DNA from: a virus
Reading direction: 5' to 3' (one strand)
UHGV virus genome: UHGV-1794847
DNA length: 21,029 bases
In this document: one piece after another, positions 2,079-20,579 of the stretch
Layout of the letters: every line of letters starts with the position of its first letter
Position numbering within the stretch: position 1 is the stretch's first letter
Translations under genes and position numbers: made by a program
Notes under the pieces: model-generated
The model's input: only the letters and a program-made list of their open reading frames with translations
Database searches by the model: none
What the model was told of the DNA's origin: nothing

Positions 2079-2127
2079 AAAATGACCAGACTTGCAAATA
2101 AATTTAAGCAAGTCTGGTCATCAGTTT
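2079..2127 (-). terminator. Intrinsic terminator downstream of the polymerase C-terminal gene
   Basis: Perfect 14-bp inverted repeat atgaccagacttgc (2082..2095) / gcaagtctggtcat (2108..2121) with 12-nt loop, flanked by AAA on one side and TTTT (2124..2127) on the other; lies directly after the stop at 2136. Confidence 0.6.
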
Positions 2128-2135
2128 TGATTGCA

Positions 2136-3428
2136 CTACAACAATGACGGCACTCGTTGAGTTTCAAGTGGGTCACTGACATTGATGCCTGTGTATGCAA
2201 CAAGTCGTTGTATTGGGCCAAGCACGAGTTTTTCGAACATGAGTCGCTTATTCATTGGTGGCACATCTGGCATGTACTTAGGCGTTGGCATTTCACCTGG
2301 CGCAAAGCCAAATGCATCGCAATATTGACGAGAACCAATTGGGATATTTGACAAATCTGACTTTGCTCTATCGACGAAATAGTAGAACACTCTACCGCCT
2401 TCAATCAATGTATATCGTGTTTCCAATCCATGAGCTTTTACAAGTGCGTTATGGTATGCACAAGCCCTGTACTGAGGCAGTACGCCTTTTGCTAACTGCC
2501 ATTCGCCATCATAGCTTAGCACATAGTCATGATACTTGTTTGCATTGACATATGCACAAAGTTTCTCCAAGTCTTGCTCGGCTTCAAAGCGTTTCCATAA
2601 TTTCTGTATGAGCTTTGGATATGTCGCAGAAGTCAATTCACCTCTGAACATTTTCTTGAATGCATAATCAAGCATTTGCCTAACAAGCATTGATGAGCCT
2701 GTTTGAATAAGTTCGATGCCTTTGCCTTGAATGTGCTCAGTAGGGTCTTCGAATACTCGACCATCTACATATATTTGAGCCTTTAAGTACTTTTTCTTTT
2801 GGGCAAATAATGCAGTGTCAGAAATCGTTTCGAGGTCAAATAGCAAAATTGAATTGCCATGACGTTTTGCGAGGTCTGCTGCATATGCCCCATTGAATAA
2901 TTCTTCCATACGATATTTGAATATCGCAAGAATCAAGTCATACCAATTTTTGCCTATGTAGCCAATTGATTTGACAGTTGGCTCAAAGTGAATGTACAAA
3001 GAGTCTGTGTCAATATACAACACTTTGTCTTCATAGGGTTCTTGCTTTGGCGACACAGACAAATCAAAATTGCCCTTCAATTGTGGGTCATTACGCAGCT
3101 TTTCATGCAATTCATAATCACACCACCACTTATTGTTAAGATAGTCATTTGCTACTCGTTCACCAAAGTGAATGAAGTTGCGGCCTTCAGCAGTAATTGA
3201 TTCTGCAACAGCCATATTAAAGAAGTGATAGAAACGATTGCTTGTAGCGCCATATATTGAGTTTCGACAACATTTTGCTGAGACTTGTAGTCCTGCATGC
3301 TTTAGTGATTCTTGCATTGCAAAATCTCTCAATTCAAATAGACGTTCAGTAGACAACTGACTCAAATCACCAGTCAAATCTACTCCATCTATTTCAATTT
3401 TTGACATATCTATCTGAGCTTCTGCCAT
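2136..3428 (-). CDS. Family-B DNA polymerase, C-terminal part (motif B, motif C, thumb)
   Basis: Motif B KCCRNSIYG verified at 3249..3275 (K-x3-NS-x-YG) and motif C YIDTDS at 3000..3017 (YGDTDS-type). Stop TAG at 2136..2138. Start set to ATG at 3426..3428; the track's 3518 start is a TTG codon, and an alternative ATG exists at 3459..3461. Confidence 0.85.
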   Translation of the reverse strand: MAEAQIDMSKIEIDGVDLTGDLSQLSTERLFELRDFAMQESLKHAGLQVSAKCCRNSIYGATSNRFYHFFNMAVAESITAEGRNFIHFGERVANDYLNNKWWCDYELHEKLRNDPQLKGNFDLSVSPKQEPYEDKVLYIDTDSLYIHFEPTVKSIGYIGKNWYDLILAIFKYRMEELFNGAYAADLAKRHGNSILLFDLETISDTALFAQKKKYLKAQIYVDGRVFEDPTEHIQGKGIELIQTGSSMLVRQMLDYAFKKMFRGELTSATYPKLIQKLWKRFEAEQDLEKLCAYVNANKYHDYVLSYDGEWQLAKGVLPQYRACAYHNALVKAHGLETRYTLIEGGRVFYYFVDRAKSDLSNIPIGSRQYCDAFGFAPGEMPTPKYMPDVPPMNKRLMFEKLVLGPIQRLVAYTGINVSDPLETQRVPSLL

Positions 3429-3448
3429 AAGTTGTTTATTTTTGATTT

Positions 3449-3459
3449 TATTGTACAAC
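3449..3459 (-). promoter_or_regulatory. Conserved GTTGTACAATA element (sense strand), 20 nt upstream of the polymerase C-part ATG
   Basis: Plus-strand tattgtacaac at 3449..3459; identical 11-mer also at 8225..8235 and 10317..10327, each upstream of a minus-strand start. Contains a TACAAT -10-like hexamer and the palindrome TTGTACAA. Confidence 0.35.
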
Positions 3460-3496
3460 ATGCAAAACGAGTTTGCACTGTTTTGATACAACGACA

Positions 3497-4459
3497 CTAA
3501 ACTTTTACATGACCACAATCAAACACAGGATAAAATTGCCGTTGTAGCATAGTATTTGTGTCAAAATTGCCATCAATAAGATGTTCGTGTGTGCGCCAAT
3601 TATGCCAATGTTTTTGAATTGTCTGCAAGTTATCTGATTTTTGTGGATTCAATGCAAAGTCTGTTGATAGCACAGGTTCATTGTTCAAATGCGCTTGTAT
3701 TGCTGCAATAACTGCTTCAACAGACATCCACTCAAATGCAGTCACACAAATAAAACCTGCACGCAATGCATCTTGAGTTTTGTAAAAGTGATATGTTGGA
3801 TGAGTTGCTGCGCATTTTGATGCATTTTTGACAAGTGCATCAAAGCTTTTTGCGCTGTTATGCGACACTGTTGGATTGATTTCTACTACGACATTGTCAT
3901 ATCGCAAATCATACAACTTTAAGCCTATTCTGTAGTCATATTCAAAATTTATGCCAAGACGTTCAAATAGCAATGCATGCCAACGTTCATTAAGTTTTGA
4001 CTGTATTTGACCAGATGCTGCTCTGCATTTTGCATGCATGCAAAAATACGGCACATCATATCGCTCTTCACATGTTTGACGCAACTTAGCAATGTTTGCA
4101 GGCCCAAGCTTGCCAAAATGCTTAAGCTTAGTTGCATTTGCTTTGTCAGTATTGCTTGGACCTGCTTTGCCAAAATGTTCAAGCTTTGTCGCATTCGCTT
4201 TGTCAGTATTGCCTGGTCCAAGCTTGCCAAAATGTTTAAGCTTAGTCTGCTTGCATTGCTCTGTTACATATGATAACTGCATATTGTGTTCTACACCATA
4301 TTTTCGCAACATTGCAATTCGCCTGATGTATTTTCTACGAATTTTGCTGTGCGACGTCTTTCTTGGTGCGTATCTAACATATGGTGTATTTGCAATCAAC
4401 TCATCTCGCTCGTTTTCAAGTTTAGCAATACGAGCATCAATCTCTTCTTTTGTCATCAT
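3497..4459 (-). CDS. Repeat-containing putative DNA-binding / homing-endonuclease-like protein, class unassigned
   Basis: ATG at 4457..4459. Three tandem 19-aa repeats (TKLKHFGKLGPGNTDKANA) encoded by a 57-bp DNA repeat; basic N-terminus. Sits between the two polymerase halves, where freestanding endonucleases typically reside. No GIY-YIG or HNH motif recognised; the motif LYDLRYDNVVVEINPTVSH is only loosely nuclease-like. Confidence 0.55.
   Translation of the reverse strand: MMTKEEIDARIAKLENERDELIANTPYVRYAPRKTSHSKIRRKYIRRIAMLRKYGVEHNMQLSYVTEQCKQTKLKHFGKLGPGNTDKANATKLEHFGKAGPSNTDKANATKLKHFGKLGPANIAKLRQTCEERYDVPYFCMHAKCRAASGQIQSKLNERWHALLFERLGINFEYDYRIGLKLYDLRYDNVVVEINPTVSHNSAKSFDALVKNASKCAATHPTYHFYKTQDALRAGFICVTAFEWMSVEAVIAAIQAHLNNEPVLSTDFALNPQKSDNLQTIQKHWHNWRTHEHLIDGNFDTNTMLQRQFYPVFDCGHVKV
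4101..4260 (-). repeat. 57-bp in-frame tandem repeat, about 2.8 copies, inside CDS 3497..4459
   Basis: Units starting near 4108, 4165 and 4222 (gcttgccaaaatgcttaagcttagttgcatttgctttgtcagtattgc and variants); period 57 = 19 codons. Confidence 0.8.
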
Positions 4460-4467
4460 AGCAATTC

Positions 4468-4501
4468 AAAAAATGCAGCAGCAGATGTTCTGCTGCTGCA
4501 T
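4468..4501 (-). terminator. Intrinsic terminator between the SSB-like gene and the endonuclease-like gene
   Basis: Perfect 12-bp stem atgcagcagcag (4473..4484) / ctgctgctgcat (4490..4501), loop atgtt, preceded on plus by an A-run 4468..4472 (a T-run after the hairpin on the minus strand). It ends about 10 nt from the next ATG at 4459. Confidence 0.6.
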
Positions 4502-4543
4502 CGGCAGGTATCTTCACATGTGTTTGAGTTGATTACGATGTGA

Positions 4544-5371
4544 TTAGAATGGCAGGTCGCCATCGTCACCTGCAGCGTCAAATTCAGCTGCAATGTCATA
4601 TACCAACGTCATTGCGATTCGCAAATCGCGCTTCTTAGACTTCAGGCGCATGATATCATGACCAGAATTGTTTGTGATGACTGAACATTCAAACTCTTCA
4701 TTGCCATCAATAAATGACAGCATTGATTTGTGAATTGTGATTGGCGACAAATCAGATGGGTAATTTGCATCAATCACATATTCAAAGTTGTTGTTCTTGG
4801 CAATTAGCCCTCGTTCAGTCGTACGAATCTCAATGCCGGGCAATTCCTTGTCACCAGTATTCAATGAACCATACGATGACATGATGCCAAAGTGATTTGA
4901 CGTCAAATCGAGCTTTCTCAGATTTGTTGTGCTATCAAACAACATTGACATATCATTGTCAGACAGCTCAAAGTAGCCAAGTGATGGCATTGAACAAACC
5001 TGATTGATTTTGAGCTGATTGTTTGAGATTACAATGAGCTCTGCAATTGTATCTGTACCAATTTGTTTGACATAGATTTCAATCATTGCAGATGAGCCAA
5101 ATGCAGCAAGTACTCGATTGTTGAATTGCGTGCCATTGTAAATGAGCGCTTTGACTGTGACATCTTTGAGTGTAGACTCATAATGTTCGCAAATGTCAAG
5201 CACATTAAGTATCTGCGACTTTACAAAGCTACTATTGCCAGCATCAGTTCTGATTCGCTGGTCATTGAGTGAAAAGCTAAGCTTGCCATCGCATTTTAAT
5301 GATGATGCAAACAATGCTCGCAGCATATCAACGTTTGCATTGCGTAATGTAATTTTGTTCAGATTTTCCAT
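4544..5371 (-). CDS. Putative ssDNA-binding protein (SSB-like acidic C-terminal tail)
   Basis: ATG at 5369..5371. C-terminus ...AAEFDAAGDDGDLPF mirrors the acidic tail ending in Phe of bacterial SSB (DDDIPF) and T7 gp2.5; located in the replication module. Fold not verified. Confidence 0.5.
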   Translation of the reverse strand: MENLNKITLRNANVDMLRALFASSLKCDGKLSFSLNDQRIRTDAGNSSFVKSQILNVLDICEHYESTLKDVTVKALIYNGTQFNNRVLAAFGSSAMIEIYVKQIGTDTIAELIVISNNQLKINQVCSMPSLGYFELSDNDMSMLFDSTTNLRKLDLTSNHFGIMSSYGSLNTGDKELPGIEIRTTERGLIAKNNNFEYVIDANYPSDLSPITIHKSMLSFIDGNEEFECSVITNNSGHDIMRLKSKKRDLRIAMTLVYDIAAEFDAAGDDGDLPF

Positions 5372-5439
5372 CTTGTATCTATGTTGTTGATTTTCAATTT
5401 AATATATTGAACAACATTTGTTGACATTTTGCAACATTG

Positions 5440-5814
5440 TCATCGATTGTCGCCTGACCCATGTAGTACGCCTCGTAATTTTCGAGACTGCAGTTTCTGA
5501 ATGTTAAGCTGACAAATGTCAGTTAAGCTGTAGCCCAAATCATGTGCAAGAGTTGCAGCGTACCACATGACATCACTGAGCTCTTTTGCGATTTCCTTGC
5601 GAATGTCTTCATTGTCAAAATCGCCATTCTTGTCTCGAATGACTTTTTTGACTTTGTCTGCAACTTCGCCTGCTTCACCCGTTAAGCCAAGTGTTGGATA
5701 GATAATTGCAGCTGATTTAGGATACACTGCGCTATCAAGTGCAGCAATCTGATATTCATCAATAGTTGAAATCTGTGCATGGTCGATTACGCCATGTTCA
5801 TCTCGTTTAAGCAT
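5440..5814 (-). CDS. mazG: MazG-like nucleoside triphosphate pyrophosphohydrolase
   Basis: ATG at 5812..5814. Motifs LGLTGEAGEVADKVKK and ELSDVMWYAATLAHDLGYSL match the MazG EEXX(E/D) helix signature common in phages. Confidence 0.8.
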   Translation of the reverse strand: MLKRDEHGVIDHAQISTIDEYQIAALDSAVYPKSAAIIYPTLGLTGEAGEVADKVKKVIRDKNGDFDNEDIRKEIAKELSDVMWYAATLAHDLGYSLTDICQLNIQKLQSRKLRGVLHGSGDNR

Positions 5815-6695: not shown

Positions 6696-8201
6696 TTACA
6701 ATTTGATTGCACCTCTACGAGCAAGCTCTTCTTCAATCAATCTAACATGATTGTTAGCATACCAAAATTGCAATTTTTTGTGATAATTGCGAATGTCGCC
6801 AAGCTGTTCTTGAGTTTCTTTATACATTGAAGGCTCTCTATTGTCATACAGACAATTATTGACAGACACAAAGTAATTTGGGTCTGCTTTGTAATGCTCG
6901 ATTTCATCAGGATTTGTCAAACGTCTAATAAAGTTGTCTGGTGAAATATTCGCCGAGCGCATACTTGACGGATACAACGAGTTTGCATCAACACAGACAA
7001 CCATACGAGCCCAATGGTTAAATGGCTGCTTAACAAAGCCGCCCTCAAATGAATGTACAACATTCTCCGGACCGCCTTGAGCGCATACAACTTTACCGCC
7101 ATATTTGTTGTACAAATATGTCATCATGACGCCCTCAGATTGCTTAACTGGTCCTTGACAGTGATTCATGTCAATATTTGTCATATTTGACAATGACATT
7201 ACATTTGATATCAAGTCAGTTTTTGCAGCAATCATCGCATTGACCATCGTATCGACAGCATTATATGCAATGAACGTGCATGGATGATACAAATACAGCT
7301 CTTTAAGTGTGCAATCATAGGGCAGCTTACCTACGCCAAACATACGATGTGCAATATAGTCAAGTCGCAATGACTCTTTTTGCCACACTGAATAGTCGTA
7401 TGTGTCCATGAGTTGCATGTAGTCATCAATGTACTTGTGATATGGCATGCCATTGCCCCAGACAGTTCTGCCAACTGGAGATGCCAATGCTAAATCAATA
7501 TTGTGCATTGCGCATCGATTTTTGATATAGATGCTATCGAAGCCATTGATGTTCCAACCTGTCAATGCAGGAATGTTTTTGAAGAGCTTAGTCACCCAAA
7601 AATGCAACAATTCATGCTCATTTGCATGTTGAAAGATTTTGACAGTCGGACGCTCTTTCAAATATGCAGCAAAGCAATGCTGACCCATGTACTCTTGAAT
7701 GATGTTATTGACAAACTCAAATGCATCGTCCAGTGTTGGGTTTTGTTTGCCACAGCTTTTGCGCAAATCATCGTCATTCAACAAGTCAACAGTTGTCTGA
7801 ATGACACAATTACATTGCTCATCACATGTACTTATTGCATTAATGGGCATTTCAGCTTTGTCAGGCTTTGGAAAGCCATTGCCAATTTCAGTCTCAATAT
7901 CGTAAAAGTACAACTTTGGTCTACGATAAGCAAACAATTCAGCTTTGTCAGCTTCAGGCAATTCAAATAAGAATTGCAGTAAGTCAAATTGATTGAATCG
8001 CTTTGCTGTAACTCGAGTTACTGGCAATTTGCGCCAATCTTGAATATCTGCATATTGCGGCTCTACATGGTCTGATATTTGCCATACTGGAAATTGATAT
8101 GGCTGTTCACAGACAGGATATGTTTTAATATCAATGCCACCTTGCTCATTAACGTATGAAACTTCAATGCCATGTGACAAATATGCTACATCGACAATCA
8201 T
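6696..8201 (-). CDS. Family-B DNA polymerase, N-terminal part (3'-5' exonuclease domain plus motif A)
   Basis: Exo I FYDIETE (about 7893..7901), Exo II-like WNINGFD, Exo III-like YNAVD, and motif A DANSLYPS verified at 6966..6989. Ends with TAA at 6696..6698 about 100 aa after motif A, before any motif B. Start set to ATG 8199..8201; the track's 8237 start is TTG. Confidence 0.9.
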   Translation of the reverse strand: MIVDVAYLSHGIEVSYVNEQGGIDIKTYPVCEQPYQFPVWQISDHVEPQYADIQDWRKLPVTRVTAKRFNQFDLLQFLFELPEADKAELFAYRRPKLYFYDIETEIGNGFPKPDKAEMPINAISTCDEQCNCVIQTTVDLLNDDDLRKSCGKQNPTLDDAFEFVNNIIQEYMGQHCFAAYLKERPTVKIFQHANEHELLHFWVTKLFKNIPALTGWNINGFDSIYIKNRCAMHNIDLALASPVGRTVWGNGMPYHKYIDDYMQLMDTYDYSVWQKESLRLDYIAHRMFGVGKLPYDCTLKELYLYHPCTFIAYNAVDTMVNAMIAAKTDLISNVMSLSNMTNIDMNHCQGPVKQSEGVMMTYLYNKYGGKVVCAQGGPENVVHSFEGGFVKQPFNHWARMVVCVDANSLYPSSMRSANISPDNFIRRLTNPDEIEHYKADPNYFVSVNNCLYDNREPSMYKETQEQLGDIRNYHKKLQFWYANNHVRLIEEELARRGAIKL

Positions 8202-8212
8202 ATTATTATCTT

Positions 8213-8623
8213 TTAGAATAGAGATATTGTACAACAATTTGATTCAGGTTGCCATTCTACAATATGCGCATCAAAGTGTTTGTTAAGCCAATGTGCAAGT
8301 ATGTGTCTATGACAAAATGCAGATGGTCTGCACCAGCATAACAGTACAATGTCTCGTTCACCAGCAAGAAGCTTTATGCGATGCAGCATCAAACTTATCT
8401 GTGACAATGCAGCGTCAAGTTTTGCAGTGTATTGCTCTGCATATTGTGCATTGTCAAGCAAGCCTACTTTATGCAAACGAACAAGTGACATGTAATCAGG
8501 CATGACGTCAGTCCATGTAAAATCTGCTATGAAGCCCTTAGGTTTTGTTGCAGATACTTGAACAAGAAATGCGTTATCAGGCAGATGCCTGCATGCATAA
8601 TATGAAGTCAAGATTCTTGTCAT
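8213..8623 (-). CDS. DUF488-like protein
   Basis: ATG at 8621..8623, overlapping the upstream stop as ATGA. C-terminal RDIVLLCWCRPSAFCHRHILAHWL resembles the conserved LLC..E....CHR.l.a..L block of DUF488 (YeaO-like) proteins, recalled from memory. Confidence 0.5.
   Translation of the reverse strand: MTRILTSYYACRHLPDNAFLVQVSATKPKGFIADFTWTDVMPDYMSLVRLHKVGLLDNAQYAEQYTAKLDAALSQISLMLHRIKLLAGERDIVLLCWCRPSAFCHRHILAHWLNKHFDAHIVEWQPESNCCTISLF
8225..8235 (-). promoter_or_regulatory. Conserved GTTGTACAATA element, 23 nt upstream of the polymerase N-part ATG
   Basis: Plus tattgtacaac at 8225..8235; same 11-mer as at 3449..3459 and 10317..10327. Confidence 0.35.
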
Positions 8624-9752: not shown

Positions 9753-10275
9753 TCAACAAATAGTTGACATGTTTGCATGAATGACGATACATAAAGCCTG
9801 GGCAATCACAATACGCTTGCATTGATTCAGGATATAACACAAGTACATGTGAATTGCCTCGTGAGCCAAAGACTTTGTACTTGACCGGTACTGTCGGCAA
9901 GCCAATCAAATTATTGACGTCTTGTGAATGTCTGATATTATGCAGCTGTTTAAGTGAAACCCAGTGTTCTGCGGCTTCAGTAGCAGACATCAAATTAATG
10001 CCAAATGCTTGTTTATATTGCTGTTTGCAAAACAACTGCCATTTGTGTGCATATACAGAGTTCTTTTGCAGCATCTCTTTATGCAACAAATACTCTTCAA
10101 TATATCTTGGCTGCCAACGAGTTGACCATGACGCAAATTCAGGCACAAACTGAATGTCTTCAAGAGTTGTGCCTGCTGGTACAGAATGCCAAGCATCACC
10201 TGTGCATACATAAGTGCCTGTTGTTGTTACAATTATTGCCGGATTACATTTGCCAATGATTTGAATCTTGTCCAT
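9706..10275 (-). CDS. Hypothetical protein with SWIM-like zinc-finger motif
   Basis: ATG at 10273..10275. C-terminal CDCPGFMYRHSCKH fits the C-x-C-x(n)-C-x-H SWIM pattern. Confidence 0.55.
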   Translation of the reverse strand: MDKIQIIGKCNPAIIVTTTGTYVCTGDAWHSVPAGTTLEDIQFVPEFASWSTRWQPRYIEEYLLHKEMLQKNSVYAHKWQLFCKQQYKQAFGINLMSATEAAEHWVSLKQLHNIRHSQDVNNLIGLPTVPVKYKVFGSRGNSHVLVLYPESMQAYCDCPGFMYRHSCKHVNYLLNVVINDKKLEKECRL

Positions 10276-10316: not shown

Positions 10317-10327
10317 TATTGTACAAC
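10317..10327 (-). promoter_or_regulatory. Conserved GTTGTACAATA element, 41 nt upstream of the ATG of gene 9706..10275
   Basis: Plus tattgtacaac at 10317..10327, followed on the sense strand by ATATAATATAAT (A/T-rich). Confidence 0.35.
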
Positions 10328-10335
10328 GCTAAGTG

Positions 10336-10515
10336 TCATTTTGCACTGTCGTCATCAATTTTTATTGATGGCGCAGCAATCAATGCAAGCAAACACCAGT
10401 CACTTTTAGTAACTGCACAAGCAACTGCTATTGCAGCAAAGAAGCTTGCATAAATGATTGCTGCAGCAAGCCAACTTGTTTTATCGCTACATTTGTTGTT
10501 CGATGAGTTCTCCAT
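10336..10515 (-). CDS. Candidate small hydrophobic protein (59 aa), below the ORF-track length threshold
   Basis: Manual translation: ATG 10513..10515, TGA 10336..10338, giving MENSSNNKCSDKTSWLAAAIIYASFFAAIAVACAVTKSDWCLLALIAAPSIKIDDDSAK with one clear hydrophobic helix. Overlaps the 3' end of the upstream gene by 29 nt. Confidence 0.25.
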   Translation of the reverse strand: MENSSNNKCSDKTSWLAAAIIYASFFAAIAVACAVTKSDWCLLALIAAPSIKIDDDSAK

Positions 10516-11898: not shown

Positions 11899-12129
11899 TT
11901 ATTCGAAATCCGTGTCGTCTACATTTTCATTAGGGTCATAGATGAGCCATACAAATGCTGCACAGCCAAGTATGAATAAGCCTCCGCCAATGATTGTCGT
12001 AAAAACCGAACCAATCCAATGCTTCATAATATCACCGAGCGGATTCAATGTTTCATAGCCAATCATAAATGCAACAAATACAACTATTATTGCTGCTATT
12101 GCTTTGTTTGTTGTGTTTCGTTTTATCAT
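11899..12129 (-). CDS. Small membrane protein, two predicted TM helices, acidic C-terminus
   Basis: The track start 12210 is GTG; first ATG at 12127..12129 gives MIKRNTTNKAIAAIIVVFVAFMIGY...IGGGLFILGCAAFVWLIYDPNENVDDTDFE. Confidence 0.5.
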   Translation of the reverse strand: MIKRNTTNKAIAAIIVVFVAFMIGYETLNPLGDIMKHWIGSVFTTIIGGGLFILGCAAFVWLIYDPNENVDDTDFE

Positions 12130-12252
12130 TATTGTAGAGGTTTTAGTGTTCTGTATATTATGTTCGAATATATGAGGACATATATTATATATAGATATAT
12201 TACAACACACAAATCATTTTTGCACACTTTTATAAACCAAAATTTCACAAAA

Positions 12253-12561
12253 ATGCAAACACAAGAAGTTTTAACGGATGTCATTGACATGTCACAATCA
12301 GCTCGCAATTATGCGCTTGGCGCTGTATGTGACGCAGAAGAGCATGAAGATGCTGTTGAAGCAGTTATCGAAGATTACATGCAAGGCGCAAGAGAAATGT
12401 ACGTCAAGTTGACTACATTTGTCAATGTCAATGATGCAGTGCCTGCAAATAACTACCCAGTCATTGCAAAGCTTGCAAATGATTCATATACAATTGCAAC
12501 ATTTGAAAATGACATGTGGTCAGTTGACCATATTGTTGCGTGGCGCAAGTTGCACATTTAA
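12253..12561 (+). CDS. Small acidic protein (102 aa); only plus-strand gene in the window
   Basis: ATG at 12253..12255 after an AT-rich divergent intergenic region; TAA at 12559..12561 followed by a terminator. About 17 D/E versus 6 K/R. The track's longer 12019 start would translate the AT-rich intergenic region and the antisense of the neighbouring gene. Confidence 0.55.
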   Translation: MQTQEVLTDVIDMSQSARNYALGAVCDAEEHEDAVEAVIEDYMQGAREMYVKLTTFVNVNDAVPANNYPVIAKLANDSYTIATFENDMWSVDHIVAWRKLHI

Positions 12562-12575
12562 GATTATAGCACAAC

Positions 12576-12607
12576 AAAAAAGTCCGAGCATTGCTCGGAC
12601 TTTTTTG
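12576..12607. terminator. Bidirectional intrinsic terminator between convergent genes
   Basis: Stem agtccgag (12581..12588) / ctcggact (12594..12601) with 5-nt loop, flanked by A-run 12576..12580 and T-run 12601..12606, so it reads as hairpin plus U-run on both strands. Confidence 0.75.
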
Positions 12608-12622
12608 TTGTGCACTGATTGT

Positions 12623-15928: not shown

Positions 15929-15953
15929 ATGCTTAAATGTAATTTGTTCTTGT

Positions 15954-16005
15954 TTTTGATGCAAGATGCAAAACAATTAAAATTGTTTTGATGCAAAATG
16001 CAAAA
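15954..16005 (-). repeat. Two 20-bp direct repeats TTTTGATGCAA(G/A)ATGCAAAA, 32 bp apart, upstream of the large gene
   Basis: Copies at 15954..15973 and 15986..16005 with one mismatch; sense-strand reading TTTTGCAT(C/T)TTGCATCAAAA, 26 to 77 nt upstream of ATG 15928. Confidence 0.6.
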
Positions 16006-16030
16006 ATCTGTTAGATTTTTGATATGTACA

Positions 16031-16067
16031 AACAAAAAGACTGCTGCAAATTATTGCAGCAGTCTTT
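16031..16067 (-). terminator. Intrinsic terminator downstream of gene 16086..16979
   Basis: Perfect 12-bp stem agactgctgcaa (16038..16049) / ttgcagcagtct (16054..16065), 4-nt loop, plus-strand A-run 16034..16037 giving a T-run after the hairpin on the minus strand. Confidence 0.7.
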
Positions 16068-16979: not shown

Positions 16980-17003
16980 GCTTGATAACGTTGAACTTTC
17001 ATG
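16965..17003 (-). repeat. 16-bp direct repeat acgttgaactttcatg duplicating the start region of gene 16086..16979
   Basis: Copies at 16965..16980 and 16988..17003; the upstream copy creates a second ATG (17000..17002) opening an 8-codon ORF MKVQRYQA whose TGA (16976..16978) overlaps the main ATG. Confidence 0.7.
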
Positions 17004-17188
17004 TGTCTTGTATATGGTCTACGGTGTGTGAAACACTCTACGGTATGATGTTGAAATTGACTGCAAGCAACAATGATGTGACATCTTCGCCCAATAGAAA
17101 TGAACCTGTAGCAAAACCAACGGCATCAAGTTGATTTGTAAACGTGCTCAGCGGCAATGTCAGTATGATGTAGCCTAACTTAACAGAG

Positions 17189-17198
17189 CCCCCCCCCC
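17189..17198. repeat. Homopolymeric C10 tract (G10 on minus strand) in the 287-bp intergenic region
   Basis: cccccccccc at 17189..17198 within otherwise AT-rich non-coding sequence 16980..17266. Confidence 0.8.
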
Positions 17199-17266
17199 GT
17201 GTTTTGCGAGCGATAGTGGTCTTGAGTTACATGTGACATATATGAAATGTTTGTTTGAATATGTAT

Positions 17267-20528: not shown

Positions 20529-20561
20529 AAAAAAACTTCGCATCAATAACTTGATGCGAAG
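20529..20561 (-). terminator. Intrinsic terminator downstream of the partial gene 20580..21029
   Basis: Perfect 11-bp stem cttcgcatcaa (20536..20546) / ttgatgcgaag (20551..20561), loop taac, plus-strand A7 run 20529..20535 giving a T-run after the hairpin on the minus strand. Confidence 0.7.
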
Positions 20562-20579
20562 TGTACTCAATGTAATATG

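What the first reader, a model, noticed from the sequence alone, without database searches (positions are those of the whole stretch)
4460..4543. Strong terminator hairpin about 10 nt upstream of the endonuclease-like gene start
A perfect 12-bp stem with a T-run lies between the SSB-like gene stop (4544) and the next ATG (4459), leaving no room for a conventional promoter. Either the endonuclease-like gene and polymerase C-part depend on read-through of this terminator, or the hairpin is an RNA processing or regulatory structure. Either way it could set the stoichiometry of the two polymerase halves.
Basis: seen in the sequence. Interest (0 to 1): 0.45.

Follow-up and report, generated by a model that had tools for sequence, protein, structure and literature searches.

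The report
Phage terminator with endonuclease gene behind it
The hairpin is real and looks like an ordinary transcription terminator that closes the first DNA-polymerase operon of an uncultured phage; a mobile endonuclease gene, missing from some near-identical relatives, has landed directly behind it, an arrangement already known from T4-type phages.

Summary
On the minus strand, 4502..4472 forms a 13-bp perfect stem plus one G·U pair, with a 3-nt loop and six T's (-23.9 kcal/mol). It starts 41 nt after the upstream stop codon, and its stem ends 13 nt before the ATG at 4459.

It is one of five canonical terminator hairpins in the window, and each follows a stop codon. All 15 fetched loci from close relatives (~95% identical) that span it keep the hairpin. 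Three of them lack the endonuclease gene, so the hairpin is a resident feature and did not arrive with that gene.

The gene is a promoterless, free-standing homing-endonuclease-like gene. Its nuclease domain has a Vsr/I-Bth0305I-like fold. It lies in a 1,008-bp cassette (4468..3461) that begins at the end of the T-run. Its leader is also unusually poor in A. I infer that it is expressed only by terminator read-through.

The polymerase C-part does not need read-through. A promoter-like motif, GCAA-N14-TTGTACAAT, lies 21 nt before its ATG. The same motif precedes the polymerase N-part and is present in the relatives that lack the endonuclease gene.

The "SSB-like" gene has a sliding-clamp fold.

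The closest precedents are T4 mobE and seg43(25) of Aeromonas phage 25. This is a new member of a known kind, of modest interest.

The parts
4472..4502 (-). Terminator stem-loop: 13 Watson-Crick pairs plus one G·U pair, loop ACA.
   Evidence: Folding energy is -23.9 kcal/mol (z = -5.8). It is present in all 15 fetched loci from close relatives that span it.
4468..4473 (-). T-run (U-tract) of the terminator. The HEG cassette begins at its 3' end.
   Evidence: Homology with the HEG-less relatives L001 and L002 ends at 4469 and 4470.
4544..5371 (-). 275-aa gene upstream of the hairpin. It is sliding-clamp-like, not SSB-like, and is the last gene of the PolB-N unit.
3461..4468 (-). 1,008-bp insertion cassette that is absent from L001, L002 and L019. 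It holds the HEG and a 3' hairpin/promoter-like unit.
   Evidence: BLAST break-points, junction alignments and intergenic sequences.
3497..4459 (-). Promoterless free-standing homing-endonuclease-like gene of 320 aa. It has DUF7487 repeats and a Vsr/I-Bth0305I-like nuclease domain.
3459..3491 (-). About 34-nt unit (TTGTATCAAAA..TGCAAA..TTTTGCATG) between the HEG stop and the promoter-like motif. HEG+ relatives carry 1 to 3 copies.
3450..3476 (-). Promoter-like motif GCAA-N14-TTGTACAAT, 21 nt before the PolB-C ATG.
   Evidence: (3 found in the window, 0.07 expected). The same motif is present in the HEG-less relatives L001 and L019.
2136..3428 (-). DNA polymerase B, C-terminal part. The true start is ATG 3428 (MAEAQID...), not the TTG at 3518.
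6696..8201 (-). DNA polymerase B, N-terminal part (exonuclease domain plus the start of the polymerase domain). It is the first gene of the unit that the hairpin closes.
8226..8252 (-). The same promoter-like motif, 24 nt before the PolB-N ATG.

Best explanation
The hairpin is a Rho-independent terminator that ends the transcription unit PolB-N, 114-aa gene, dUTPase, MazG, sliding-clamp-like gene. It is a resident feature of this phage lineage. In the ancestral arrangement, still seen in relatives L001, L002 and L019, it is followed by a spacer of about 75 nt. That spacer holds a second, weaker hairpin and a promoter-like motif (GCAA-N14-TTGTACAAT) that starts the PolB-C unit.

In the window, a 1,008-bp cassette has been inserted exactly at the end of the T-run. 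The cassette carries a promoterless gene for a Vsr-like homing endonuclease (HEG) and its own 3' hairpin/promoter-like unit. The HEG can therefore be transcribed only by polymerases that read through the terminator. Its leader is U-rich, in a genome where every other leader is A-rich and lacks a Shine-Dalgarno sequence, so I expect it to be translated poorly as well.

PolB-C keeps a promoter-like motif just downstream of the HEG and is insulated from the insertion.

What is shown: the anatomy, the conservation, the presence/absence polymorphism, the insertion point, the motif enrichment and the fold of the nuclease. What is inferred: actual termination, promoter activity, low HEG expression and homing activity.
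For: Terminator anatomy and statistics. Four other canonical terminator hairpins in the window each sit just after a stop codon (20562..20535, 16067..16036, 12613..12569, 2122..2081).

Conservation: the hairpin is present in all 15 fetched loci from close relatives that span it. Twelve of these loci carry the HEG and 3 lack it.

Position in distant phages: a terminator-like hairpin of unrelated sequence sits at the same place, after the clamp-like gene and before PolB-C, in the cultured Chryseobacterium phages MA9V-1 (-19 kcal/mol) and MA9V-2 (-18.6 kcal/mol).

Promoter-like motif: it occurs at fixed spacing before PolB-C, PolB-N, a third gene and the late-sigma-like gene of L019.

HEG identity: Vsr/I-Bth0305I fold, with paralogues at other intergenic sites.

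HEG leader: 3 A's, against 9.25 +/- 2.0 in other genes.

Precedent: T4 mobE is promoterless, is limited by an intrinsic terminator, and has a middle promoter at its 3' end for nrdB (PMC2790892; PMC2988022).
Against: There are no transcript data, so neither termination nor read-through has been measured.

Covariation is weak. The close relatives show only one compensatory pair (G-C to A-U, in L019), which is not significant (104 of 500 shuffles reach it). In a perfect palindrome such a change can also arise by template switching between the arms.

A sister lineage (L006, L027-L029; clamp 43-44% identical) has no hairpin, so the element is not essential to the split-polymerase arrangement.

The host is unknown. 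The absence of Shine-Dalgarno sequences and the nearest cultured relatives suggest Bacteroidota. The GCAA-N14-TTGTACAAT motif does not match the host promoter consensus I recall for that phylum (TTTG / TAnnTTTG), so calling it a promoter rests on its position and recurrence only.
Confidence: 0.7

Rival explanations
1. The hairpin acts mainly as a translational control element for the endonuclease gene. In read-through mRNA it would block ribosome access to the HEG start. This is how the hairpins of I-TevI and of Aeh1 mobE work, and the geometry resembles the very stable hairpin just upstream of seg43(25) in Aeromonas phage 25.
For: The stem ends only 13 nt before the AUG, inside the usual ribosome footprint. 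The leader is unusually poor in A. In the window sequence, the minimum-energy fold of the whole spacer adds an outer helix that pairs the AUGAUG with sequence just after the clamp stop codon. The seg43(25) precedent is described in PMC2988022.
Against: The hairpin exists unchanged in relatives without the HEG, so it did not evolve for the HEG. It does not cover the start codon, and there is no Shine-Dalgarno sequence for it to hide. The outer helix that would sequester the AUG is not predicted in L008, L009, L010 or L020. No internal late-type promoter exists that could produce a hairpin-free transcript.
Confidence: 0.12
2. The palindrome matters at the DNA level. It would be part of the recognition or cleavage site of the homing endonuclease, or a recombination hot spot that attracts mobile nuclease genes.
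For: The cassette starts exactly at the end of the palindrome's T-run. A paralogous HEG in L022 is inserted directly next to the 5' base of another terminator palindrome, after PolB-C. In Chryseobacterium phage MA9V-2 a TnpB gene begins 22 nt after the equivalent hairpin. The 3-nt loop occurs in both orientations (ACA and TGT) in both HEG+ and HEG- genomes and does not follow the flanking haplotypes, which points to repeated DNA-level inversion. The related enzyme I-Bth0305I acts as a dimer on a pseudopalindromic site (PMC3239194).
Against: In a compact phage genome, intergenic DNA is mostly terminators and promoters, so an intergenic insertion is likely to sit next to one by chance. The L001 paralogue is inserted 8 nt after the PolB-N stop codon with no strong palindrome nearby. 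The MA9V-2 hairpin could belong to the TnpB element's own end. No cleavage data exist.
Confidence: 0.1
3. The hairpin is an RNA processing or stability element, such as an RNase III-type site or a 3'-exonuclease barrier, and does not stop transcription.
For: Any stable 3' hairpin protects the upstream mRNA. The stem is perfect and very stable.
Against: A stem of 13-14 bp is shorter than the roughly two helical turns that RNase III usually needs (my own knowledge). A U-tract directly follows the stem in every relative: 4 to 7 T's, and 7 in the L010 group, where the outer A-U pair is lost. That is the signature of intrinsic termination and is not needed for processing. There is no Rfam match.
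Confidence: 0.06

Closest known systems
Phage T4 mobE in the nrdA-nrdB spacer (Wilson and Edgell 2009, PMC2790892)
   Same: Both are free-standing, promoterless homing endonuclease genes that depend on upstream transcription. In both, an intrinsic terminator limits the transcripts that reach the gene. In both, a promoter at the 3' end of the insertion restores expression of the essential downstream gene (nrdB in T4, PolB-C here).
   Different: In T4 the terminator lies 27 nt inside mobE and is found only in phages that carry mobE. Here it lies upstream of the ORF and is also present in relatives without the HEG. The T4 enzyme is HNH; this one is Vsr-like. The T4 case has been tested by experiment, and this one has not.
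seg43(25) in the split gene 43 (PolB) of Aeromonas phage 25 (Petrov et al. 2006 and 2010, as summarised in PMC2988022)
   Same: An endonuclease gene lies between the two halves of a split T4-type PolB, with a very stable hairpin immediately upstream of its translation start that does not cover the start. As in that case, the HEG here seems to have invaded a gene that was already split.
   Different: seg43(25) is a GIY-YIG (segD-like) enzyme with a Shine-Dalgarno site. In the window, four other genes also lie between the polymerase halves, and the hairpin carries a full U-tract and follows a stop codon.
Canonical Rho-independent terminators of T4 and its hosts
   Same: A G+C-containing perfect stem, a short loop, a U-tract directly after the stem, a position just after a stop codon, and the same orientation as the gene.
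   Different: The stem is rather long (13-14 bp) and the loop has 3 nt, against the usual 4. Activity in the unknown host has not been tested.
EDxHD / Vsr-like homing endonucleases (I-Bth0305I, Hef-type; PMC3239194, PMC2677866)
   Different: No sequence-level match to the PDB or to a named family was found. The N-terminal repeats are DUF7487-type, not the NUMOD motifs of I-Bth0305I. I did not verify the EDxHD motif residue by residue. The conserved residues here are YD...E(I/L)(N/S)P..SHN...H..K and EH..D.

Membership tests
Rho-independent (intrinsic) terminator | Stable G+C-containing stem with a short loop | tested here: met
   13 Watson-Crick pairs plus one G·U pair, 7 G-C pairs, 3-nt loop, -23.9 kcal/mol, z = -5.8.
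Rho-independent (intrinsic) terminator | U-tract immediately 3' of the stem | tested here: met
   Six T's at 4473..4468. Every close relative has 4 to 7 T's.
Rho-independent (intrinsic) terminator | Lies downstream of a gene end, on the coding strand | tested here: met
   41 nt after the stop codon at 4544. All neighbouring genes are on the minus strand. There is no T-run on the plus strand.
Rho-independent (intrinsic) terminator | Structure maintained in relatives | tested here: inconclusive
   The stem is kept in all 15 fetched loci from close relatives, and hairpins of unrelated sequence occupy the same position in MA9V-1 and MA9V-2. However, there is only one compensatory pair, which is not significant, and the hairpin is absent from the L006 lineage.
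Rho-independent (intrinsic) terminator | Transcript 3' ends map to the U-tract | not testable with these tools
   Needs Term-seq, 3' RACE or in vitro transcription.
RBS-sequestering hairpins of phage homing endonuclease genes (I-TevI, Aeh1 mobE type) | The hairpin covers the ribosome binding site or the start codon | tested here: not met
   The stem ends 13 nt before the AUG, and no gene in the window has a Shine-Dalgarno sequence. An outer AUG-pairing helix is predicted only in some haplotypes.
RBS-sequestering hairpins of phage homing endonuclease genes (I-TevI, Aeh1 mobE type) | A late promoter inside or after the 5' arm gives a hairpin-free transcript | tested here: not met
   Only 13 nt lie between the stem and the AUG. 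Neither the promoter-like motif nor a sigma-70-like site is there.
RBS-sequestering hairpins of phage homing endonuclease genes (I-TevI, Aeh1 mobE type) | The element travels with the endonuclease gene | tested here: not met
   The hairpin is present in the HEG-less relatives L001, L002 and L019.
T4 mobE-type arrangement (promoterless HEG, terminator, downstream promoter) | The HEG lacks its own promoter | tested here: met
   By sequence only: 13 nt between the stem and the AUG. Paralogues start 8 nt (L001) and 5 nt (L022) after the preceding stop codon.
T4 mobE-type arrangement (promoterless HEG, terminator, downstream promoter) | A promoter at the 3' end of the insertion serves the downstream essential gene | tested here: inconclusive
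   A promoter-like motif is present at 3476..3450 and at the 3' end of the L001 and L009 cassettes. Promoter activity has not been tested.
T4 mobE-type arrangement (promoterless HEG, terminator, downstream promoter) | The terminator is found only in genomes that carry the HEG | tested here: not met
   The terminator is present in relatives that lack the HEG.
Vsr-like (EDxHD) homing endonucleases, for the 320-aa protein | Vsr-like nuclease fold | tested here: met
   [not shown]
Vsr-like (EDxHD) homing endonucleases, for the 320-aa protein | EDxHD catalytic residues | not tested
   No residue-by-residue superposition was done. The invariant residues of the family are listed.
Vsr-like (EDxHD) homing endonucleases, for the 320-aa protein | Mobility: presence/absence at one site in otherwise collinear genomes | tested here: met
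   The 1,008-bp cassette is present in 12 of the 15 fetched loci and absent from 3, all about 95% identical. The flanking haplotypes are shuffled with respect to its presence.
   [not shown]

The most novel reading that the evidence does not exclude
The terminator palindrome may be more than a neighbour of the insertion. It could be the landing signal. On this reading, Vsr-like endonucleases with DUF7487 repeats would recognise or cut at terminator palindromes. The spot behind the clamp-gene terminator would then be a recurrent dock for unrelated mobile nuclease genes: this HEG here, and TnpB in Chryseobacterium phage MA9V-2. The flipped loop (ACA or TGT) would be a scar of repeated break repair at the palindrome.
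Probability: 0.1. Interest if true: 0.55.

Novelty: new member of a known kind. Interest (0 to 1): 0.25.

Why it matters
The result corrects the gene map of this region. The polymerase C-part starts at 3428 and appears to have its own promoter. The "SSB-like" gene is a clamp-like gene. The endonuclease gene is a recent, polymorphic insertion.

It also adds a case from outside the Enterobacteria and Aeromonas phages, with a Vsr-like enzyme, to a known rule. The rule is that free-standing homing endonuclease genes sit where transcription is low and carry or keep a promoter for the essential gene downstream.

The natural set of occupied and empty alleles (window, L008-L012, L014-L017, L020 and L022 against L001, L002 and L019) would make a convenient system for studying homing in a poorly known group of large phages. 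At least one related contig comes from a human-gut metagenome. None of this would surprise a specialist.

Tried and rejected
1. Near-identical phage genomes. Megablast of 3400..5500 against 50,697 phage records found nothing. tblastn of the clamp-like and HEG proteins also found nothing. Only the PolB-N protein found distant cultured relatives.

2. Rfam and tRNA scans of the window found nothing.

3. Sequence searches for the HEG and clamp-like proteins against NCBIfam and the PDB gave only noise. Their identity came from fold comparison instead.

4. Covariation support for the hairpin. The close relatives are too similar, with one compensatory pair that is not significant. The metagenome scan added only one more close copy and three copies of the hairpin-less sister lineage.

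5. A long-range helix that sequesters the HEG start codon. It is predicted in the window but is not conserved across HEG+ haplotypes, so I rejected it as a general mechanism.

6. The motif TTGYATCAAAA as a window-wide signal. It is not enriched (8 found, 5.2 expected), although three exact copies cluster in or just upstream of the 16067..15930 spacer.

7. A split intein at the PolB break, as in the 'fractured genes' of PMC2677866. PolB-N plus PolB-C come to 501 + 430 aa, about the length of an uninterrupted T4-type PolB, and I saw no intein-like extension. This was judged by eye only.

It was repeated with eligible rows.

Full report
**1. The observation**

All long ORFs around the finding are on the minus strand. 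Read on that strand, the 84-nt gap between the stop codon of the 275-aa gene (4546..4544) and the next ATG (4459) contains GATGCAGCAGCAGA-ACA-TCTGCTGCTGCATT, followed by TTTTGAATTGCT and then ATG.

- The arms 4501..4489 and 4485..4473 are 13 nt long and perfectly complementary. A G·U wobble adds a 14th pair.
- The loop has 3 nt, and six T's (4473..4468) follow.
- The hairpin alone folds at -23.9 kcal/mol, against -9.6 +/- 2.5 for shuffles. None of 200 shuffles is as good.
- A stringent scan of my own (stem of at least 8 pairs, dG at most -10, T-rich tail) finds three sites on the coding strand, all directly after stop codons. The expectation is about 0.05 per shuffled sequence.

**2. The surroundings**

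From high to low coordinates, the minus strand encodes the following:

- PolB N-part, true start ATG 8201, ending at 6696
- a 114-aa gene
- dUTPase
- a MazG-like pyrophosphatase
- the 275-aa gene (5371..4544)
- the hairpin
- the 320-aa endonuclease-like gene (4459..3497)
- PolB C-part

The mechanical ORF for the C-part starts at a TTG at 3518. Alignment with relatives and with the PHROG profiles puts the real start at ATG 3428 (MAEAQID...).

No gene in the window has a Shine-Dalgarno sequence, and the leaders are A-rich. The nearest cultured phages are large phages of Chryseobacterium and Tenacibaculum, and Sphingomonas phage PAU, at 29-36% amino-acid identity in PolB-N. One related contig is from a human-gut metagenome. 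A Bacteroidota host is therefore likely but not shown.

**3. Relatives with and without the endonuclease gene**

Two IMG/VR contigs (L001, L002) are about 95% identical to the window across this region. Both lack 4468..3461 (1,008 bp), which includes the whole 320-aa gene. In its place they have about 35 nt.

More loci were recovered through the clamp-like protein and one through a HEG paralogue (L022). They gave 12 fetched loci with the gene in total: L008, L009 (a 382-aa variant), L010-L012, L014-L017, L020 and L022. They also gave a third locus without it, L019.

Every locus that spans the site keeps the hairpin. The hairpin is therefore resident. The endonuclease gene is a polymorphic insertion that begins exactly at the end of the T-run.

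- With the gene: CATTTTT|TGAATTGCTATGATG
- Without it: CATTTTT|GTTTAACACACAT...

Variation within the hairpin is small:

- The loop is ACA or its reverse complement TGT, in genomes both with and without the insertion, and does not follow the flanking haplotypes.
- L019 has a compensatory G-C to A-U change.
- The L010 group loses the outer A-U pair and gains a longer T-run.

Formally, covariation is not significant. In a perfect palindrome a double change can also arise by template switching between the arms, so I do not count it as proof of selection on the RNA.

**4. More distant comparisons**

A sister lineage (L006, L027-L029; clamp 43-44% identical) has only 26 nt between the clamp gene and PolB-C and no hairpin.

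The cultured Chryseobacterium phages do have a terminator-like hairpin of unrelated sequence at the same place (clamp-like protein about 20% identical, pairwise E = 2e-11 to 4e-12):

- In MA9V-1: UUUGGAGAG..CUCUCCAAA plus a U-rich tail, -19 kcal/mol, 28 nt before the PolB-C ATG.
- In MA9V-2: a different 11-bp hairpin (-18.6 kcal/mol) plus AUUUUU, followed after 22 nt by a TnpB gene and then PolB-C.

The position is thus used for a terminator-like hairpin in three unrelated sequence versions. In two lineages a mobile nuclease gene sits directly behind it.

**5. The endonuclease-like gene**

Paralogues at 34-46% identity occupy other intergenic sites in this lineage:

- 8 nt after the PolB-N stop codon in L001
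- 5 nt after the PolB-C stop codon and just before that gene's terminator in L022
- next to the terminase gene in L021

Taken together, the fold, the presence/absence polymorphism, the shuffled flanking haplotypes and the paralogues at other sites make a free-standing homing endonuclease gene the best reading. Nuclease activity and homing are inferred.

**6. Promoter-like motif**

TGTACAAT occurs 8 times in the window, 7 of them on the coding strand, against 1.9 expected. The extended pattern GCAA-N14-TTGTACAAT occurs three times with identical spacing, against 0.07 expected:

- 3476..3450, 21 nt before the PolB-C ATG
- 8252..8226, 24 nt before the PolB-N ATG
- 10344..10318, 42 nt before the ATG at 10275

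In the loci it recurs before the same genes and before a late-sigma-like gene, directly after a T-run in L019. It is present between the hairpin and PolB-C in L001 and L019, which lack the insertion. L002 has it with one mismatch.

The motif also lies at the 3' end of the L001 cassette, at a site where genomes without that cassette have no such motif. L009 has one cassette unit with the motif, followed by the complete resident spacer. The cassettes therefore appear to carry a promoter-like unit at their 3' end.

Between the HEG stop codon and the motif, relatives carry one to three tandem units of about 34 nt.

I infer that PolB-C has its own promoter and does not depend on read-through. That this motif is a promoter rests on position, spacing and recurrence only.

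**7. Mechanism proposed**

- The hairpin ends the unit that runs from PolB-N to the clamp gene.
- The HEG has no room for a promoter, with 13 nt between the stem and the AUG. It would be transcribed only by read-through.
- Its leader has 3 A's in -20..-1, against 9.25 +/- 2.0 for 20 other genes, the lowest in the window. I therefore expect weak translation in a system that lacks Shine-Dalgarno sequences.
- PolB-C is served by the motif downstream of the HEG.

This matches what has been shown experimentally for T4 mobE. That gene is promoterless, is co-transcribed with nrdA, and is limited by an intrinsic terminator that stops 30-50% of transcripts. A middle promoter at its 3' end serves nrdB (PMC2790892; PMC2988022). 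The geometry also matches seg43(25) of Aeromonas phage 25, a HEG in a split gene 43 with a very stable hairpin just upstream of its start (PMC2988022).

The main difference from mobE is that this terminator is older than the insertion and lies upstream of the ORF.

**8. Rival explanations**

- A translational-control hairpin of the I-TevI type fails three defining features. It does not cover the start, no internal promoter exists, and it is present without the HEG. An outer helix that pairs the AUG in the window's predicted fold is not conserved.
- A DNA-level role for the palindrome, as endonuclease target or insertion hot spot, is suggested by several observations. The junction is exact, the L022 and MA9V-2 cases are similar, and the loop is flipped in some genomes. 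However, intergenic DNA in such genomes is mostly terminators and promoters, the L001 paralogue has no such neighbour, and no cleavage data exist.
- A pure processing or stability element is unlikely, because the U-tract is conserved and the stem is short for RNase III.

**9. Verdict**

It is partly wrong: the polymerase C-part has its own promoter-like motif, and the stoichiometry idea is neither supported nor needed.

The element is an ordinary intrinsic terminator in an instructive context. It is a new example of a known arrangement, in a poorly studied phage group and with a Vsr-like endonuclease. Interest is 0.25. The most novel reading still open, that the terminator palindrome is the landing signal for mobile nuclease genes, has a probability of about 0.1.

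Noticed in passing
window 4486-4488 (loop); L001, L008, L009, L019, L022 compared with window, L002, L010-L017, L020: The 3-nt loop of the terminator occurs as ACA or as its reverse complement TGT. Both forms occur in genomes with and without the endonuclease gene, and they do not follow the flanking haplotypes. This suggests repeated inversion of the loop at the DNA level.
   Followed up: partly
[not shown]
   Followed up: yes
L001 3447-4680 (insertion between the PolB-N stop and the 114-aa gene; empty in window 6696-6691): L001 carries a 399-aa paralogue of the endonuclease gene (34% identical). It starts 8 nt after the PolB-N stop codon and has the TTGTACAAT motif at its 3' end. The window and L002 have nothing at this site.
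   Followed up: yes
L022 4001-5104; window 2081-2122: L022 has a third paralogue (367 aa), inserted 5 nt after the PolB-C stop codon and directly before that gene's terminator hairpin. In the window this site is empty, and the hairpin (15-bp stem, -25.1 kcal/mol) lies at 2122..2081.
   Followed up: partly
window 12569-12613: A 45-nt perfect palindrome (22-nt arms, -35.6 kcal/mol) with an inner A6-stem-T6 core lies just after the stop codon of the 1,101-aa gene. It looks like a bidirectional terminator. The plus-strand ORF 12019-12561 that would converge on it has no family hit, so the convergent arrangement is uncertain.
   Followed up: partly
window 3459-3491; L008, L010, L011, L020 downstream of the endonuclease gene: A unit of about 34 nt (TTGTATCAAAA..TGCAAA..TTTTGCATG, containing an AU-rich hairpin) is present in 1 to 3 tandem copies between the endonuclease stop codon and the promoter-like motif. 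Related TTTTGCAT and TTGCATCAAAA elements cluster in the spacer 16035-15930. They may be an operator or a promoter element.
   Followed up: partly
window 16980-17266: This is a 288-nt stretch without a long ORF. It contains a run of ten G's at about 17196-17187 on the minus strand, which is unusual for this AT-leaning sequence.
   Followed up: no
L023 (Chryseobacterium phage MA9V-2) 10676-11889; L025 (Tenacibaculum phage PTm5) 10052-12830: In MA9V-2 a TnpB-family gene sits between the hairpin after the clamp-like gene and PolB-C. In PTm5 the PolB C-part is annotated as further broken, with a split intein and a Vsr endonuclease. The polymerase locus of this phage group attracts several kinds of mobile nuclease genes.
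   Followed up: partly
L019 7122-7665; L022 8185-8728: A gene of 162-166 aa lies a few genes downstream of the polymerase locus in relatives, beyond the end of the window. The L019 copy matches the PHROG for late sigma factors (gp55-like, E = 1e-8). In both loci the gene is preceded by the same GCAA-N14-TTGTACAAT motif.
   Followed up: partly
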